A DNA stretch of 64,000 bases from Escherchia phage Stokescottia. This document shows positions 12,734 through 55,800 of the stretch, piece after piece. The notes beneath the pieces are model-generated. The model was not told where the DNA came from. It saw nothing but the letters and a program-made list of their open reading frames with translations, and searched no databases. The first letter of the stretch is position 1, and each line of letters opens with the position of its first letter. Made by a program: the position numbers and the translations under genes. The stretch is from the sequence record OR896820.1, one strand, 5' to 3'.

Positions 12734-12756
12734 AGCCCTTCGGGGCTATTATATTT
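12734..12756 (+). terminator. rho-independent terminator
   Basis: AGCCC-TTCG-GGGCT hairpin followed by T-rich tract. Confidence 0.55.
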
Positions 12757-12765
12757 AAATTTCAT

Positions 12766-12794
12766 TTGCTTATTTAGTGAAATTTAAATATAAT
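12766..12794 (+). promoter_or_regulatory. sigma70-type early promoter
   Basis: TTGCTT 12766-12771, TATAAT 12789-12794. Confidence 0.55.
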
Positions 12795-12819
12795 ATATTT
12801 TATAAATTGGAGGTATATA

Positions 12820-19140: not shown

Positions 19141-19545
19141 AGGGAACAGCGAGCCGATTACGCTGAGTGCAGAATCCCAACCGGAGCGCATTGAATAGAG
19201 TCGGTGGGTTAGTTGTAAAACTAGTACACAGGGGGCGGCAATTCCGGTTAGTGGCTAGAACGTGTAAAATGAGGCGTCTGAAACCTCTCCCCTAAACTCT
19301 TCTCTAATTTATAAATAGTGGGGTGTGGAAATCACTTATGTAGTAACACTGCCGTCCTAGTATAATTGGTATTATCAAGCCGTAACTGGTGGAAGATGTA
19401 GGTTCGAATCCTACGGTCGGTAAGAACTGGATAACTGGTGCTTTTAACGTAAAAGCTTCCGAGGTTAGTTGCGCACTGCCTAAACCACGCGGTAGTTGGT
19501 TCCAGACTAACCAACCAGTCTGCTGAATAGTTTTATTACGATTTA
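19141..19545 (+). ncRNA. candidate structured non-coding RNA(s), unassigned
   Basis: Promoter-driven ~400 nt without ORF; contains T-arm-like GTAGGTTCGAATCCTAC and a terminal hairpin GTTGGTT-CCAGACT-AACCAAC followed by T-rich tract. Confidence 0.3.
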
Positions 19546-19924
19546 ACTATGTCCAGGCTAAAGAAGAACTTTAGAAGGTATTCTAGGATAGTGAAGTTCT
19601 TTCTCCATATCGGAGTAGTTTTTCAAGCTATCCACAAAGTGGGAAATGCTGACATGAGAGATGTCACTAATGGTGCACAATAGCACAGGTAATTCGCGAT
19701 AATTCCTGTTGAGTAGCAGCAAAAGGCGGGAAGTCATGACCCCAAGCCTAACCGAGTCCTCAATATACCGCAGGACATAACCACTAAGTCACCCTGACTT
19801 AAACTGGAAAATAATAGACGTTACCGTATTTTGTCTTGAAATACTTAATGAGTGGGACTTATGACTCTCCCGGTATCGTCTGTATTTTTAAGAGTTTTTA
19901 CGAGAGTTCTTAAAAATACTTAAA

Positions 19925-23632: not shown

Positions 23633-23710
23633 GGTTCTCAAGCTCATATGGTATGAGCACCCGGCTCATAACCGGAAGGTACGTAGGTTCGAATCCTCGG
23701 GGAGCCACCA
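23633..23710 (+). tRNA. tRNA with CAT anticodon (Met or Ile-lysidine type)
   Basis: Acceptor GGTTCTC/GGGAGCC, loop CTCATAA; T-stem only 3 clean pairs; discriminator A, CCA. Confidence 0.55.
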
Positions 23711-28392: not shown

Positions 28393-28629
28393 ATTTATAT
28401 AAATTGATGAGGAGAAATCCTCATCATAGTTCACTAAGGTATTAGCTCGACCTAGGACTGGCTGCCAAAAAGCACGATCCCCATGATTCGGGAGAAGTTC
28501 TAGATTGGTCCACTAGATTCAGCGGCAACTGAATAGTGTATTGGGTTTGCGAGATGACGCAGTTCCTTCCGCTCGAAGCGAAGGTGCTGTAGTTACGCCG
28601 AGCTAATAGCCTTAGTAAACTAAAGAATT

Positions 28630-28790: not shown

Positions 28791-28902
28791 AAATTTGATG
28801 GTCAGAGTAAATTAAACCTACTATCTCGGTTGAGCTGTTTTAATGGGTTCGAATCCCAGCGAGGCGTAACTGCCTGGTGTGATAGAGGCATCATCTTATT
28901 AT
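28791..28902 (+). ncRNA. unassigned RNA element with T-arm-like hairpin
   Basis: ATGGG-TTCGAAT-CCCA motif with no pairing acceptor stem or CCA; adjacent hairpin AGGC-GTAACT-GCCT. Confidence 0.25.
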
Positions 28903-28993
28903 TGGAAGAGCAAATCGAATTGGCGACGAAAACCGCTTGGAAAGTGGCTGACTGGTAAAACGGCTTGAGAGTTCAAATCTCTCCTCTTCCGCC
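28903..28993 (+). tRNA. tRNA-Ser (anticodon GGA), long variable arm
   Basis: Acceptor GGAAGAG/CTCTTCC, loop TTGGAAA, 19-nt variable arm, discriminator G, CCA. Confidence 0.7.
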
Positions 28994-29013
28994 AAACACT
29001 TGAGGTAATAATA

Positions 29014-29361
29014 ATGCTAGCAAAAGATAAAGCTCTAGAGTTTTTAGCATCTTTAGATGAAGATAAGATTATAGATGCTGCTGAAAAAGCTGGAATGCCA
29101 GATTTAACATATCTGGAACGTGCTATTATTGCTCGTGATAAACTACAGAAAGAGTTTGCTATTGCTCAGGAGGAGTTTTATACTCGCTATAACGCTCTTA
29201 CTAAGCAAATTGAAAATGAGTGTTCTCATACTTGGGGAGTAACAGAAAACCTAGGTAATGATCACGATGGCTGGTCTAAAGTAAAAATTACCTACTACCA
29301 TCGTAGGACTTGTAAAATTTGTGGAAAAGTAGAAAACTTCACTAGTACGAGTGACTATTAG
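29014..29361 (+). CDS. hypothetical protein with C-terminal Cys pair
   Basis: ORF track; CSH...CKICG. Confidence 0.5.
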   Translation: MLAKDKALEFLASLDEDKIIDAAEKAGMPDLTYLERAIIARDKLQKEFAIAQEEFYTRYNALTKQIENECSHTWGVTENLGNDHDGWSKVKITYYHRRTCKICGKVENFTSTSDY

Positions 29362-29374
29362 TATAATAAATACT

Positions 29375-29464
29375 AGAAGATAGGACGTAGTGGTACGTAA
29401 CTGGTCTTGAAAACTAGCCCGCTGTAGTGATACGGTGATGGTTCGACTCCATTATCTTCTGCCA
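29375..29464 (+). tRNA. tRNA-Ser (anticodon TGA), long variable arm
   Basis: Acceptor AGAAGAT/ATCTTCT, loop CTTGAAA, long variable arm, discriminator G, CCA. Confidence 0.75.
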
Positions 29465-29665
29465 ATTAACTATAAGGAAATCTTATGAGCAAAACAGTTA
29501 CTGTAACAATGAAGGATGGTAAAAAATTTAAAGCATGTCTTCATGAAACAGATAAGGGATGGATGGCTTATTTGCCACACCTAGATTCCACCAGGTACGG
29601 AATGACCCAACGTGAAGCTATTGTTGATGCTTTAAATGAGGCTTCTGCTGGTTTATAAAAATTCT

Positions 29666-29796
29666 TGAAGTATGCCGGAATTGGTAGACGGGGCTGCCTA
29701 AAAGGTTTATAGAGAACATCCACTCTCTACAACATACCTCATAAAGCGGCTGAGATAAATGGTCTATCTCGTGAAGGTTCAAGTCCTTCTGCTTCT
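29666..29796 (+). ncRNA. tRNA-like element with ~40-nt insertion in the anticodon region (no encoded CCA)
   Basis: Acceptor TGAAGTA/TGCTTCT (6 pairs), D-arm CCG-GAATTGGTAGA-CGG, helix GCTGC/GCGGC enclosing 48 nt, hairpin GAGATA-AATGGTC-TATCTC, T-arm GAAGG-TTCAAGT-CCTTC. Confidence 0.35.
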
Positions 29797-30026
29797 TGAT
29801 ACATCTATGGCTCAAAGTGTAACGGTGCTATTTGATGCTCTTAGTAAGACTTCCCCGACATGCGTTCGGGAGTAAGCTGCTAAGGCTAGAGTAGAAGAGT
29901 TTCTGAGAGCCGCCACAATTGAAAATTCGTACTCGTCTTGAGCTGCGTGCAATAGGAGATAACTTGATTAGTATTCTAGAACATGCTAATTGAGGAAGGT
30001 TTCGCTAACCCTGCGAGTTTTCAATT

Positions 30027-30103
30027 GTGGCTATATCATAATTGGTTAATGATCCTGATTGTGAATCAGGCCTATGTGGATTCGAGTTCCACTAGCCACC
30101 CCA
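30027..30103 (+). tRNA. tRNA-His (anticodon GTG)
   Basis: Acceptor GTGGCTA/TAGCCAC, loop TTGTGAA, discriminator C, CCA; the 5' acceptor strand can also pair with 29910-29923. Confidence 0.7.
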
Positions 30104-30128
30104 AATTAACTTAAATAGGAAATAATAT

Positions 30129-30329
30129 ATGGCTGATTTCTGCAAACAATGCTCCATTGATATGTGGGGCAGAGATACTGGTGATCTTTCTGGTTTGATT
30201 ACAGAAGCCGAAGTTAAAGAAGGCTACGGTGCTGTTGTAATCTGTGAAGGTTGTGGTGTTATTCGTGTAGATCATGAAGGCAAACGTCTAGAAGAACCAG
30301 AACCAATAGCCACGGTTCCTGTAGAGTAA
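30129..30329 (+). CDS. Cys-rich small protein
   Basis: CKQC...CEGC pattern. Confidence 0.5.
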   Translation: MADFCKQCSIDMWGRDTGDLSGLITEAEVKEGYGAVVICEGCGVIRVDHEGKRLEEPEPIATVPVE

Positions 30330-30337
30330 AGAATTAT

Positions 30338-30413
30338 TGGAGTGTAGATCAATTGGCAGATCGTCGGCCTCTGACTTCGAAGGTTCCTGGTTCGATCCCA
30401 GGCACTCCAGCCA
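30338..30413 (+). tRNA. tRNA-Gln (anticodon CTG)
   Basis: Acceptor TGGAGTG/CACTCCA with U1-A72, D-stem GATC/GATC, loop CTCTGAC, discriminator G, CCA. Confidence 0.6.
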
Positions 30414-31251: not shown

Positions 31252-31259
31252 AAATTCAT

Positions 31260-31288
31260 TTGCTTTCTCTCTTATTTCTTGTTATAAT
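31260..31288 (+). promoter_or_regulatory. sigma70-type early promoter
   Basis: TTGCTT 31260-31265, TATAAT 31283-31288. Confidence 0.6.
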
Positions 31289-31318
31289 ACTTGTATAAAT
31301 TAATGAGAGGGAAACCAA

Positions 31319-31612
31319 ATGAAACGTTATCTTTCTGTTATGTTCCAAACTGGTGGTCAACGCTATACCTATGAATTTCCATCTTCTTGGAAAATCAAAG
31401 AAGGTGATCAAGTAGTTGTACTAACACCGCGTGATGGGTACAAGGTAGTAACGGTTAAGCAAGTCTTTCCAAAAGATTATACACCATCTAAGTCTATTAA
31501 TTATAAGATGATTCATGGTGTAGTTCGTCAAGTACCCCGAGTGGACATCGAGGTCAAAGTAGATAAAGATGGTAAACTTAAATATACCTCTTGCTTAGAA
31601 GAGTTGCTATAA
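31319..31612 (+). CDS. hypothetical protein
   Basis: ORF track. Confidence 0.5.
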   Translation: MKRYLSVMFQTGGQRYTYEFPSSWKIKEGDQVVVLTPRDGYKVVTVKQVFPKDYTPSKSINYKMIHGVVRQVPRVDIEVKVDKDGKLKYTSCLEELL

Positions 31613-50255: not shown

Positions 50256-50470
50256 TAAATACGAATGATAATAAGAATCATTCTCATTTAAAAAGCGGAA
50301 TGAGAATGATAATAATTCGCATTTAGAAAGTGAAACGAGAATCAATCTCATTTAAAAAGTGAAATGATTCTCGTTTAAAAAGCGGAATGAAAATTATTCA
50401 GGAAGTGAAACGATTCTCATTTAGAAAGTGAAATACAAATGAGAATGATTCGCATTTAAGAACGGAAGTG
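50256..50470 (+). repeat. degenerate tandem repeats (~25-30 bp unit, TC[TG]CATTTA[AG]AAAG[CT]G[AG]AA[CT]GA)
   Basis: About seven imperfect units read directly. Confidence 0.75.
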
Positions 50471-54923: not shown

Positions 54924-55368
54924 AGGAAAATTTCATTTTTGCTTTTGGGGATAAGTTATCAACAAGGCTAGAATGCGCCTAAAACGCTCCAGAACGCAAT
55001 AAAGTTTTTAGCCATCCCATCATAAGGGGATAGGCCGTTTATCGCTACCACGAGCTTTTTAGATTTTGTCAAGTAGGGCAAAGCAAATATAAATGAAAAA
55101 ATTACTTGCCTATCTGCTCTGTTTTGTGGTATTCGCGCGCCCGTTTCTTTTAATTTTAGGCCGTCGCCGGACGTGGTGCGGTGAATTTTGTCTTTACGTT
55201 TCTTTACAAAAATAGGGTTGCGCCATTTTCGGGAATCCCCTATTATTTATCACGTAGGGCGGCAATGACGAACTACACGGCGGGAAGTTTACCGCCGCGC
55301 TCTTTAAAAATTGGGTACATCTTAAAGCCTATCGGCGGTAAACTTATTCATTATAAGGAATCGACGAT

Positions 55369-55572
55369 ATGAAACAAACTTTATTGATCACTGGCAAGCC
55401 TAGCAAGGCACTAGATAGCAAAACAAAAAATTTGTTGACAGTAGCGCAAAGATCGGTAAAATATCGATTCACGCAGTACAAGAAAGGTCGCCAGCAAGGT
55501 TTAGAAATGATCTGGCGAAATATTATGATTGACCTGAAAGAAAATCATAAAAAATCTCAAAAAATTGTTTGA
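55369..55572 (+). CDS. small basic protein
   Basis: ORF track; RBS aggaa. Confidence 0.4.
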   Translation: MKQTLLITGKPSKALDSKTKNLLTVAQRSVKYRFTQYKKGRQQGLEMIWRNIMIDLKENHKKSQKIV

Positions 55573-55800
55573 CACCCTAGCCGATAGGCTTTAAGATGTA
55601 CCCAGTTCGACAAGAGCGATAACTTGATAAAATTTGACGGTCGGCACTTACCATAATGTGTCCCGCCCCCTAACTGGGATATAGCGGCCTACGTGGAGTT
55701 CTTTAAATTGATTATATTGGCGAGCGGATTGTTACTTATTACCTGCTACTTTCTAGCAGGTAATGCGGAACAATCCCCTAAATAACTTGGAGTTTATACT

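What the first reader, a model, noticed from the sequence alone, without database searches (positions are those of the whole stretch)
29909..30033. Long-range helix pairs the 5' acceptor strand of tRNA-His with upstream sequence
GCCACAATTGAAAA at 29910-29923 is the exact reverse complement of TTTTCAATTGTGGC at 30017-30030, and the downstream arm overlaps the first nucleotides of tRNA-His (30027-30103). A 14-bp perfect helix enclosing ~90 nt just upstream of a tRNA suggests an alternative precursor structure that could gate processing, or a separate ncRNA.
Basis: seen in the sequence. Interest (0 to 1): 0.5.

Follow-up and report, generated by a model that had tools for sequence, protein, structure and literature searches.

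The report
Processing stem flanking phage T5 RNA III
The inverted repeat is real, but it is the roughly 20-base-pair base stem of "RNA III", a small stable RNA of T5-like phages annotated for decades with no known function; in the uncut transcript this stem also ties the end of the preceding RNA to the first bases of tRNA-His, and it is most likely a cutting site for the host's double-strand RNase.

Summary
The exact 14-mer arms are 29912-29925 and 30018-30031. With two G.U pairs they extend to an uninterrupted 20-bp helix, 29912-29931 / 30012-30031, which covers G1-C5 of tRNA-His.

The window is a T5-like phage tRNA cluster. The helix brackets the stable "RNA III" (29920-30025), which is annotated in the T5, BF23 and phage 5 GenBank records and is 105/106 identical to T5's copy. 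The outer 8 bp pair the 3' GCCA of "RNA I" plus a CAAU spacer with U-1 and G1-C5 of tRNA-His.

Relatives carry at least five different inserts at this position, including one with almost no cargo. All keep a 19-21 bp helix. Nine of 20 pairs show changes on both sides, and every non-Watson-Crick pair is G.U on the + strand. Klebsiella phage Sugarland keeps a 19-bp helix in a different register.

The annotated RNA III ends sit inside the helix with a 2-nt 3' overhang, and so do those of a second stable RNA, RNA 2H. The best explanation is an RNase III-type processing stalk (inferred, not shown). A specific gate on tRNA-His maturation is only weakly supported. The gene is known; the conserved stalk with swappable cargo appears not to have been described.

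The parts
29912..29931 (+). 5' arm of the 20-bp helix (GCCACAAUUGAAAAUUCGUA). It comprises the discriminator G and CCA of RNA I (29912-29915), the spacer CAAU (29916-29919) and the first 12 nt of RNA III.
30012..30031 (+). 3' arm of the 20-bp helix (UGCGAGUUUUCAAUUGUGGC). It comprises the last 14 nt of RNA III, U-1 (30026) and G1-C5 of tRNA-His (30027-30031).
29920..30025 (+). RNA III, a 106-nt stable RNA of unknown function, mapped from the annotation of AJ604531 and AY692264. Predicted fold: 12-bp terminal stem, a weak hairpin, a 12-bp hairpin (29963-29974 / 29983-29994), a small hairpin (29998-30001 / 30007-30010), and a 2-nt 3' overhang.
   Evidence: 105/106 identical to T5 rnaIII
29809..29915 (+). 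RNA I, a 107-nt annotated stable RNA. It has the terminal stem GGCUC/GAGCC followed by G and CCA, a tRNA-like 3' end. Its GCCA end is inside the helix.
29916..29919 (+). Spacer CAAU between the annotated RNA I 3' end and the RNA III 5' end. It is paired with 30024-30027 in the precursor. The proposed 5'-strand cut lies between 29919 and 29920.
30027..30103 (+). tRNA-His (GUG) with CCA encoded, C73 and U at -1 (30026). The GenBank records annotate it as 78 nt starting at 30026. The proposed 3'-strand cut lies between 30025 and 30026.
29664..29808 (+). RNA1, an annotated tRNA-like RNA directly upstream, in the same proposed precursor. It resembles a tRNA cloverleaf with a 45-nt insertion in the anticodon loop.
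   Evidence: (tRNA model 25 bits, below the cut-off of 29)

Best explanation
The inverted repeat forms an approx. 20-bp double-stranded processing stalk in the polycistronic precursor RNA1 - RNA I - RNA III - tRNA-His of a T5-like phage. It closes the known stable RNA III. In the uncut transcript it also pairs the 3' GCCA of RNA I and a CAAU spacer with U-1 and G1-C5 of tRNA-His. I infer that host RNase III makes a staggered double cut in this stalk, between 29919|29920 and between 30025|30026. That cut would release RNA III with a 12-bp stem and a 2-nt 3' overhang. It would leave RNA I with a 4-nt trailer that exonucleases trim back to CCA, and it would free the 5' acceptor strand of tRNA-His so that the cloverleaf can form. 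Shown here: the helix, its conservation and covariation, its length constancy, its strand specificity, and its predicted dominance over the acceptor stem. Taken from annotation: the RNA ends. Inferred: the enzyme and the order of events.
For: (1) Identity of the parts. There is a gap-free alignment to AJ604531, where RNA1, RNA I, RNA III and tRNA-His are annotated. The T5 record has the same layout, and RNA III is 105/106 identical to T5's.
(2) The annotated ends fit RNase III geometry. The 5' U29920 pairs with A30023 and the 3' end is U30025, giving a 2-nt 3' overhang inside a 20-bp helix. This matches the in vivo rule of double cleavage in a stem of about 22 bp leaving 2-nt 3' overhangs (PMC6212723).
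(3) There is an independent second case in the same cluster. The annotated RNA 2H (L001 914-1085; window homolog 28440-28611) has both ends inside an approx. 27-bp helix. They are staggered by two base pairs, and both pairs between the cuts are G-C.
(4) The helix itself is under selection. Six insert types in T5/Epseptimavirus phages, with 42 to 147 nt between the outer ends, all keep 19-21 pairing positions. 97.5% of cells are paired and 9 of 20 pairs have changes on both sides, while slid controls reach at most 44%. Point compensations occur within insert types: L009 vs TrudiGerster G-C to A-U, S124 vs STG2 G-C to A-U, and L028 G.U to A-U.
(5) The cargo-less S124 allele is just the stalk capped by a GCAA loop.
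(6) Sugarlandvirus has a different tRNA-His and a different RNA I but keeps a 19-bp helix running from the CCA of RNA I to U-1, G1 and G2. A U-A to C-G compensation occurs within that genus.
(7) All non-Watson-Crick pairs are G.U on the + strand, so the helix is an RNA feature of the transcribed strand.
(8) In the uncut precursor the helix outcompetes the acceptor stem (-101.8 vs -92.3 kcal/mol; P(acceptor) = 0.00), and this holds for all alleles. After the proposed cut only a 6-bp intermolecular duplex remains. It is worth about 6 kcal/mol at 1 M standard state and so would not hold at cellular concentrations.
(9) Precedent: E. coli RNase III takes part in maturation of T4-encoded tRNAs (review PMC4810235, citing McClain 1979).
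Against: No cleavage data were available. I could not find the primary papers behind the annotated ends. The 3' end of RNA III is annotated flush with a 78-nt tRNA-His, so it may reflect a convention of including position -1 rather than a measurement. If RNase P cuts at 30026|30027, the overhang would be 3 nt. The two base pairs between the proposed cuts are A-U and U-A, whereas in vivo RNase III sites usually have at least one G-C there. The outer 9 pairs never vary within T5-like phages, because they are constrained by the CCA end and by the tRNA. Their pairing is therefore supported only by the Sugarland comparison. Much of the 'covariation' comes from replacement of whole inserts, not from stepwise substitutions. 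In Proteus phage 1 the hairpin abutting tRNA-His has arms of only 16 nt.
Confidence: 0.55

Rival explanations
1. The helix is simply the structural base stem of the RNA III family. Under this view the ends are made by RNase P at the tRNA-His 5' end and by RNase P, RNase E and exonucleases elsewhere. The 8-bp outer extension is then a by-product: any RNA ending in CCA placed in register before a tRNA that starts GUGG can pair.
For: Mature RNA III keeps a 12-bp stem, the length of a coaxial acceptor plus T stem. Each larger insert has a small hairpin next to the 3' strand of the stem, a tRNA-like layout that RNase P could recognise. RNA I and RNA1 look like RNase P substrates. The outermost pair is broken in some phages, where G29912 is A. 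CCA:UGG pairing needs little selection.
Against: The cargo-less S124 allele keeps a 19-position stalk with a compensatory change although there is no RNA III body to stabilise. Helix length is constant at 19-21 bp while cargo ranges from 4 to about 107 nt. Sugarland keeps the pairing up to the CCA in a different register, and it is retained through a duplicated ATTTGG when an insertion separates it from the tRNA. RNA 2H ends lie inside a long helix far from any tRNA end. RNase P does not cut inside a continuous 20-bp duplex (established knowledge).
Confidence: 0.25
2. The helix is a regulatory gate specific to tRNA-His. By sequestering G1-C5 it would delay or tune tRNA-His maturation relative to the other tRNAs.
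For: Predicted P(acceptor) is 0.00 in the uncut precursor. tRNA-His is the extreme case among the 21 tRNAs of the window for 5' nucleotides paired upstream. A hairpin overlapping tRNA-His +1/+2 also occurs in Proteus phage 1.
Against: The overlap varies between 5, 2 and 0 nt. AmPh_EK80-type Sugarlandviruses have tRNA-His detached from the intact helix. No condition-dependent alternative structure or ligand site is evident. Sequestration follows automatically from any processing stalk that abuts a tRNA.
Confidence: 0.1
3. The repeat is a DNA-level element: an inverted repeat marking the borders of a recombination cassette, a homing-endonuclease target or a cruciform. This would explain why different inserts sit between the same flanks.
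For: Insert types and RNA I types reassort among phages. L034 combines the window-type RNA I with a different insert. HNH endonuclease genes are scattered in T5 tRNA regions. The outer arms contain the palindrome CAATTG.
Against: The inner arm sequences differ between inserts yet stay complementary. Mismatches are always G.U on the + strand, which would be A.C on the other strand and in a cruciform. The S124 allele loses the CAATTG palindrome but keeps pairing. The arm sequence is single-copy in the window. Cassette exchange by recombination in the conserved RNA I and tRNA-His flanks needs no inverted repeat.
Confidence: 0.05

Closest known systems
Stable RNA III (rnaIII) of bacteriophages T5, BF23 and Salmonella phage 5 (GenBank AY692264, AJ604530, AJ604531: 'stable RNA with unknown functions')
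   Same: Same gene: 105/106 identical to T5 rnaIII, with the same position between RNA I and tRNA-His.
   Different: Nothing differs at the gene level. What the annotation does not state is the 8-bp extension of the stem into RNA I and tRNA-His, its conservation across different inserts, and a processing role.
RNase III processing stalks, such as the long stems formed by sequences flanking 16S and 23S rRNA in E. coli rRNA operons, and in vivo double-cleavage sites (PMC6212723)
   Same: An intramolecular helix of about 20-22 bp formed by sequences flanking a stable RNA. The ends are staggered with a 2-nt 3' overhang, and neighbouring tRNAs sit in the same precursor.
   Different: Cleavage has not been demonstrated here. 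The two pairs between the proposed cuts are A-U/U-A rather than containing a G-C. The stalk directly includes a CCA end and the first nucleotides of a tRNA.
RNase III involvement in maturation of the phage T4 tRNA cluster (McClain 1979, cited in PMC4810235), and the T4 stable RNAs 'species 1 and 2' (RNAs C and D) in that cluster (the latter from my own knowledge)
   Same: A phage tRNA operon transcribed as a long precursor that contains extra stable RNAs of unknown function and depends partly on host RNase III as well as RNase P.
   Different: No sequence relationship was tested or found. Rfam has no family for the T5 RNAs. The T4 site details could not be read here.

Membership tests
T5-type stable RNA III (annotated rnaIII) | Sequence identity to the annotated rnaIII of T5, BF23 and phage 5 | tested here: met
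   105/106 identical to T5. 282 phage records cover at least 80% of the 136-nt query spanning RNA III at 95% identity or more.
T5-type stable RNA III (annotated rnaIII) | Position between RNA I and tRNA-His on the tRNA strand | tested here: met
   Gap-free alignment to AJ604531, and the same order in AY692264.
E. coli RNase III double-cleavage substrate | Intramolecular helix of about two turns (approx. 20-22 bp) | tested here: met
   20 uninterrupted pairs at 29912-29931 / 30012-30031. The helix has 19-21 pairing positions in all alleles. Criterion from PMC6212723.
E. coli RNase III double-cleavage substrate | Product ends opposite each other with a 2-nt 3' overhang | tested here: inconclusive
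   This is met if the annotated ends (29920 and 30025) are real. The experimental basis of the annotation could not be verified, and the 3' end may be a convention tied to a 78-nt tRNA-His.
E. coli RNase III double-cleavage substrate | [quoted passage not shown] | tested here: not met
   They are paired, but as A29918-U30025 and U29919-A30024 with no G-C (rule, stated as 'usually'). RNA 2H meets it with two G-C pairs.
E. coli RNase III double-cleavage substrate | rnc-dependent cleavage in vivo or cleavage by the purified enzyme | not testable with these tools
   No transcript-end data for T5-infected rnc mutants could be found.
tRNA (Rfam RF00005), considered for RNA III itself | Match to the tRNA covariance model | tested here: not met
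   No hit on 29920-30025 even at E = 10. Only RNA1 gives a sub-threshold hit, at 25 bits.
Intrinsic terminator | G+C-rich hairpin followed directly by a U run | tested here: not met
   The 3' arm is followed by GUGGCUAUAUC, the start of the tRNA. The only terminator-like call inside (30001-30017) is a 5-bp stem using part of the arm.
Miniature inverted-repeat mobile element | Multiple dispersed copies with terminal inverted repeats and target duplications | tested here: not met
   The arm sequence occurs only at this locus in the window. The outer arms are parts of RNA I and tRNA-His.

The most novel reading that the evidence does not exclude
The approx. 20-bp stalk is a conserved RNase III excision module in which Demerecviridae swap unrelated structured small RNAs, possibly tRNA-like decoys against host defences. 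In T5-type phages the cut on its 3' strand would directly create the 5' end of tRNA-His with an extra U at -1, without RNase P. That would supply the additional 5' nucleotide that bacterial histidyl-tRNA synthetase normally needs and that these phage genes do not encode as G-1.
Probability: 0.1. Interest if true: 0.7.

Novelty: new member of a known kind. Interest (0 to 1): 0.33.

Why it matters
T5 RNA I, RNA III and RNA 2H have been annotated as "stable RNA with unknown functions" for decades. Showing that RNA III sits in a length-conserved, covarying double-stranded stalk gives a concrete and cheap experiment on how the T5 tRNA operon is matured: end mapping in rnc versus wild-type hosts. 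The stalk survives when its cargo is replaced or deleted, which separates two questions that had been merged: what the stalk does and what the cargo does. It also flags that tRNA-His of these phages lacks an encoded G-1, so the way its 5' end is produced may decide whether it is chargeable. If the stalk is merely structural, the finding is an ordinary base stem of a known RNA.

Tried and rejected
1. Rfam, at gathering and permissive thresholds, on the window and on five related loci found no family for RNA I, RNA III or the alternative inserts.
2. Literature searches for the primary T5 RNA I/RNA III papers or for T5 transcript-end data found nothing usable. The T4 genome review is not held.
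3. Looking for distant relatives through the small ORF downstream of tRNA-His returned 66 loci. Only Sugarland (L063) had a tRNA-His nearby; the others were unrelated contexts.
4. I guessed that the 139-nt insertion in AmPh_EK80 carries a promoter. The consensus scan did not support this, so I dropped it.
5. An apparent sequestration of the tRNA-Ala 5' end was an artefact of truncating the upstream RNA 2H. With the full context the tRNA-Ala cloverleaf forms.
6. The terminator, mobile-element and DNA-cruciform readings were rejected for the reasons given under rival explanations and membership tests.
7. Covariation inside the T5-type RNA III body could not be assessed. Nine distinct variants show only one-sided changes and one broken pair.

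Full report
**1. The observation**

GCCACAATTGAAAA is at 29912-29925 and its exact reverse complement is at 30018-30031. The repeat finder extends the arms to 18 nt at 94%. With G.U allowed, the helix is 20 uninterrupted pairs, 29912-29931 / 30012-30031.

tRNA-His is at 30027-30103 (ARAGORN; Rfam 58.6 bits). The 3' arm therefore includes U-1 and tRNA positions 1-5.

A perfect 14-mer inverted repeat with a loop of 150 nt or less is expected 0.15 times per shuffled window. This is the only uninterrupted 20-bp helix with a span of 320 nt or less in the 64 kb.

**2. What the region is**

The window is the tRNA cluster of a T5-like phage (Demerecviridae). It has 21 ARAGORN tRNAs, and 501 phage records match 29400-30400, the best at 98%.

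One record, AJ604531 (Salmonella phage 5 tRNA region), is annotated in detail and aligns to the window without gaps. Mapped onto the window, its features are:

| Feature | Window coordinates | Annotation / note |
|---|---|---|
| RNA1 | 29664-29808 | tRNA-like RNA |
| RNA I | 29809-29915 | stable RNA; ends GCCGCCA |
| spacer CAAU | 29916-29919 | none |
| RNA III | 29920-30025 | stable RNA with unknown functions |
| tRNA-His | 30026-30103 | 78 nt |

The T5 genome record AY692264 has the same layout. The window's RNA III is 105/106 identical to T5's. The "approx. 90 nt enclosed" is therefore a gene known for decades, and the inverted repeat is its base stem.

What goes beyond the annotation is the following. 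The helix continues 8 bp past the annotated RNA III ends. There it pairs the discriminator G plus CCA of RNA I and the CAAU spacer with U-1 and G1-C5 of tRNA-His. Rfam has no family for RNA I or RNA III.

**3. Structure**

RNA III alone folds into a 12-bp terminal stem with a 2-nt 3' overhang and three inner hairpins (z = -2.9). With the flanks the closing helix is 20 bp (z = -6.0).

In the full RNA I-RNA III-tRNA-His precursor the minimum-energy structure keeps the 20-bp helix and leaves the tRNA-His acceptor strand unavailable:
- Energy is -101.8 kcal/mol, against -92.3 kcal/mol when the cloverleaf is enforced.
- Helix pair probabilities are above 0.97 for 19 of the 20 pairs (0.76 for the innermost).
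- Acceptor pair probabilities are 0.00.

The helix already forms in partial transcripts that end before the tRNA 3' half is made. Among the 21 tRNAs of the window, tRNA-His is the extreme case for 5' nucleotides paired upstream. These are nearest-neighbour predictions and ignore tRNA tertiary structure.

**4. Comparative evidence**

RNA III itself is very conserved: 282 records cover at least 80% of the 136-nt query spanning it, at 95% identity or more. Nine distinct T5-type variants show only one-sided changes, including G.U to A-U in the closing helix.

The informative signal comes from phages that carry something else between RNA I and tRNA-His. Loci from IMG/VR, metagenomes and GenBank show at least five further insert types:

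| Insert type | Example phages or loci | Length including arms |
|---|---|---|
| STG2/S114 type | STG2, S114 | 77 nt |
| L034 type | metagenome contig L034 (inferred for Seafire and saus132 from the 310-bp match span) | 135 nt |
| LVR16A/TrudiGerster type | LVR16A, TrudiGerster | 147 nt |
| S124 type | S124 | 42 nt |

In a spread sample of 505 records these make up roughly 15%, 10%, 3% and 2%, against about 55% for the T5 type.

Every type keeps a helix of 19-21 pairing positions. Its outer nine pairs (GCCACAAUU/AAUUGUGGC) are invariant. Its inner part differs in sequence but stays complementary.

On eight distinct arm pairs, 97.5% of cells are paired and 9 of 20 pairs have changes on both sides. 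Sliding the partner by 1-3 columns gives at most 44% pairing.

There are also stepwise compensations within a type:
- G-C to A-U between LVR16A and TrudiGerster.
- G-C to A-U between STG2 and S124.

The S124 allele is essentially the stalk alone, capped by a GCAA loop, and is derived from the STG2 type by loss of the cargo.

All non-Watson-Crick pairs are G.U on the + strand. This fits an RNA helix on the transcribed strand and does not fit a DNA cruciform.

**5. A more distant genus**

Klebsiella phage Sugarland (Sugarlandvirus; L063) has a different tRNA-His (GGGAUAU...) and a diverged RNA I ending GGGCC-A-CCA. It nevertheless has a 19-bp helix, CCAAAUUUGAGUAUCAUCG / CGAUGGUACUCAAAUUUGG. There the CCA of RNA I pairs with U-1, G1 and G2 of tRNA-His. 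The register differs from the window, where CCA pairs with U2, G3 and G4.

Within the genus one helix pair changes from U-A to C-G.

In AmPh_EK80-type phages a 139-nt insertion flanked by an ATTTGG repeat separates the 3' arm from tRNA-His. The helix, including the CCA:UGG pairs, stays intact through the duplicated copy. Overlap with the tRNA is thus not obligatory; the stalk belongs to the RNA I/cargo unit.

In Proteus phage 1 (Novosibvirus) a hairpin with 16-nt arms overlaps G1 and U2 of tRNA-His. It follows an unannotated tRNA that ends in CCA.

**6. Mechanism**

The annotated RNA III ends lie opposite each other in the helix with a 2-nt 3' overhang: U29920 pairs with A30023, and the 3' end is U30025.

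A second annotated stable RNA in the same cluster is RNA 2H (L001 914-1085; window homolog 28440-28611). It is closed by an approx. 27-bp helix, and its annotated ends are likewise staggered by two pairs, both G-C. It is not adjacent to any tRNA end.

These features match host RNase III as mapped in vivo (PMC6212723):
- double cleavage within a stem;
- a substrate of about 22 bp;
- 2-nt 3' overhangs.

RNase III is already known to take part in T4 tRNA maturation (PMC4810235).

I therefore propose a staggered RNase III cut at 29919|29920 and 30025|30026. It would have three consequences:
- RNA III is released.
- RNA I keeps a CAAU trailer that exonucleases trim back to CCA.
- The tRNA-His 5' strand is held only by a 6-bp intermolecular duplex, worth about 6 kcal/mol at 1 M, which would dissociate at cellular concentrations. 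The cloverleaf (-23.5 kcal/mol) can then form.

The steps that are inferred, not shown, are the enzyme, the exact cut sites and the order of events.

Weak points:
- The primary evidence for the annotated ends could not be read.
- The RNA III 3' end may be a convention tied to a 78-nt tRNA-His.
- The two pairs between the proposed cuts are A-U/U-A, whereas in vivo sites usually contain a G-C.

**7. Rival explanations**

(a) The helix may be only a structural base stem, with ends made by RNase P, RNase E and exonucleases. Four observations argue against this: the cargo-less allele, the constant helix length, the retention of pairing up to the CCA in Sugarland, and the RNA 2H ends. It is not excluded (0.25).

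(b) It may be a tRNA-His-specific gate. The variable overlap and the detached AmPh_EK80 configuration weaken this reading (0.1).

(c) It may be a DNA-level cassette border or nuclease site. The strand-specific G.U pairs argue against it, as does the loss of the CAATTG palindrome with pairing retained in S124 (0.05).

(d) A terminator or a mobile element is not supported.

**8. Comparison and novelty**

RNA III is a known gene of unknown function. The helix works like the RNase III processing stalks of rRNA operons and like the RNase III step in T4 tRNA maturation. Membership as an RNase III substrate remains unproven: one usual feature is not met and the decisive one is not testable here.

New, as far as I could check, are these points:
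- the precursor-level extension into the CCA end of RNA I and into tRNA-His;
- the conservation of an approx. 20-bp stalk across unrelated inserts and in a second genus;
- the cassette-like reassortment of inserts and RNA I types.

I rate it a new member of a known kind, of moderate interest.

Noticed in passing
window 28427-28622 (RNA 28440-28611): This is the homolog of the annotated stable 'RNA 2H' (172 nt), located between tRNA-Lys and tRNA-Ala. It is closed by an approx. 27-bp helix (28427-28454 / 28594-28622). In AJ604531 its annotated ends lie inside that helix, staggered by two G-C pairs, which is RNase III-like.
   Followed up: partly
window 29664-29808: 'RNA1' is a tRNA-shaped RNA with a 45-nt insertion in the anticodon loop and no encoded CCA (Rfam tRNA model 25 bits, below the cut-off of 29). 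Its acceptor stem shows compensatory changes against T5 (GAAGUA/UGCUUC versus GGAAUA/UGUUCC).
   Followed up: partly
window 29809-29915: RNA I ends like a tRNA: stem GGCUC/GAGCC, then G, then CCA. It exists in at least two sequence types that reassort with the downstream insert types among phages. Sugarland has a diverged copy ending GGGCC-A-CCA.
   Followed up: partly
window 30026-30027; L063 1267-1268; L036 1493-1494; L105 701-702: The tRNA-His genes of T5-like phages, Sugarland, Proteus phage 1 and the Felix O1-like Pectobacterium phage Wc4-1 all have U rather than G at position -1. Position 73 is C, or U in Sugarland. The extra G-1 typical of bacterial tRNA-His is therefore not encoded.
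   Followed up: partly
L107 approx. 400-540 (Klebsiella phage AmPh_EK80; also Torridgeon, PWKp9S and others): A 139-nt insertion of unknown nature lies between the stalk and tRNA-His, flanked by a 6-nt direct repeat ATTTGG. A promoter was suspected but the consensus scan did not support it.
   Followed up: partly
window 23633-23707 and 19351-19422: Rfam calls two further tRNAs above its cut-off (40.3 and 35.5 bits) that ARAGORN did not report. Conversely, at gathering threshold on the whole window Rfam missed the tRNA-Ala, tRNA-Ser(tga) and tRNA-His genes that ARAGORN found.
   Followed up: no
window 19882-19919: A 17-bp hairpin (GUAUUUUUAAGAGUUUU / AGAGUUCUUAAAAAUAC) ends 5 nt upstream of tRNA-Arg (19925). 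It is another strong stem directly in front of a tRNA.
   Followed up: no
window 28792-29374: Between tRNA-Leu and tRNA-Ser(tga) the window has 583 nt, including a 115-aa ORF (29014-29361). Phage 5 has tRNA-Ser2 there instead. A second GGGTTCGAATCC T-arm-like motif near 28844-28856 hints at an uncalled or degenerate tRNA-like sequence.
   Followed up: no
window 55309-55338 / 55578-55607; 50275-50289 / 50437-50451; 12747-12795; 31255-31323: There are other strong inverted repeats outside the tRNA cluster. The longest is a 29-of-30 match with arms 240 nt apart at 55309-55607.
   Followed up: no
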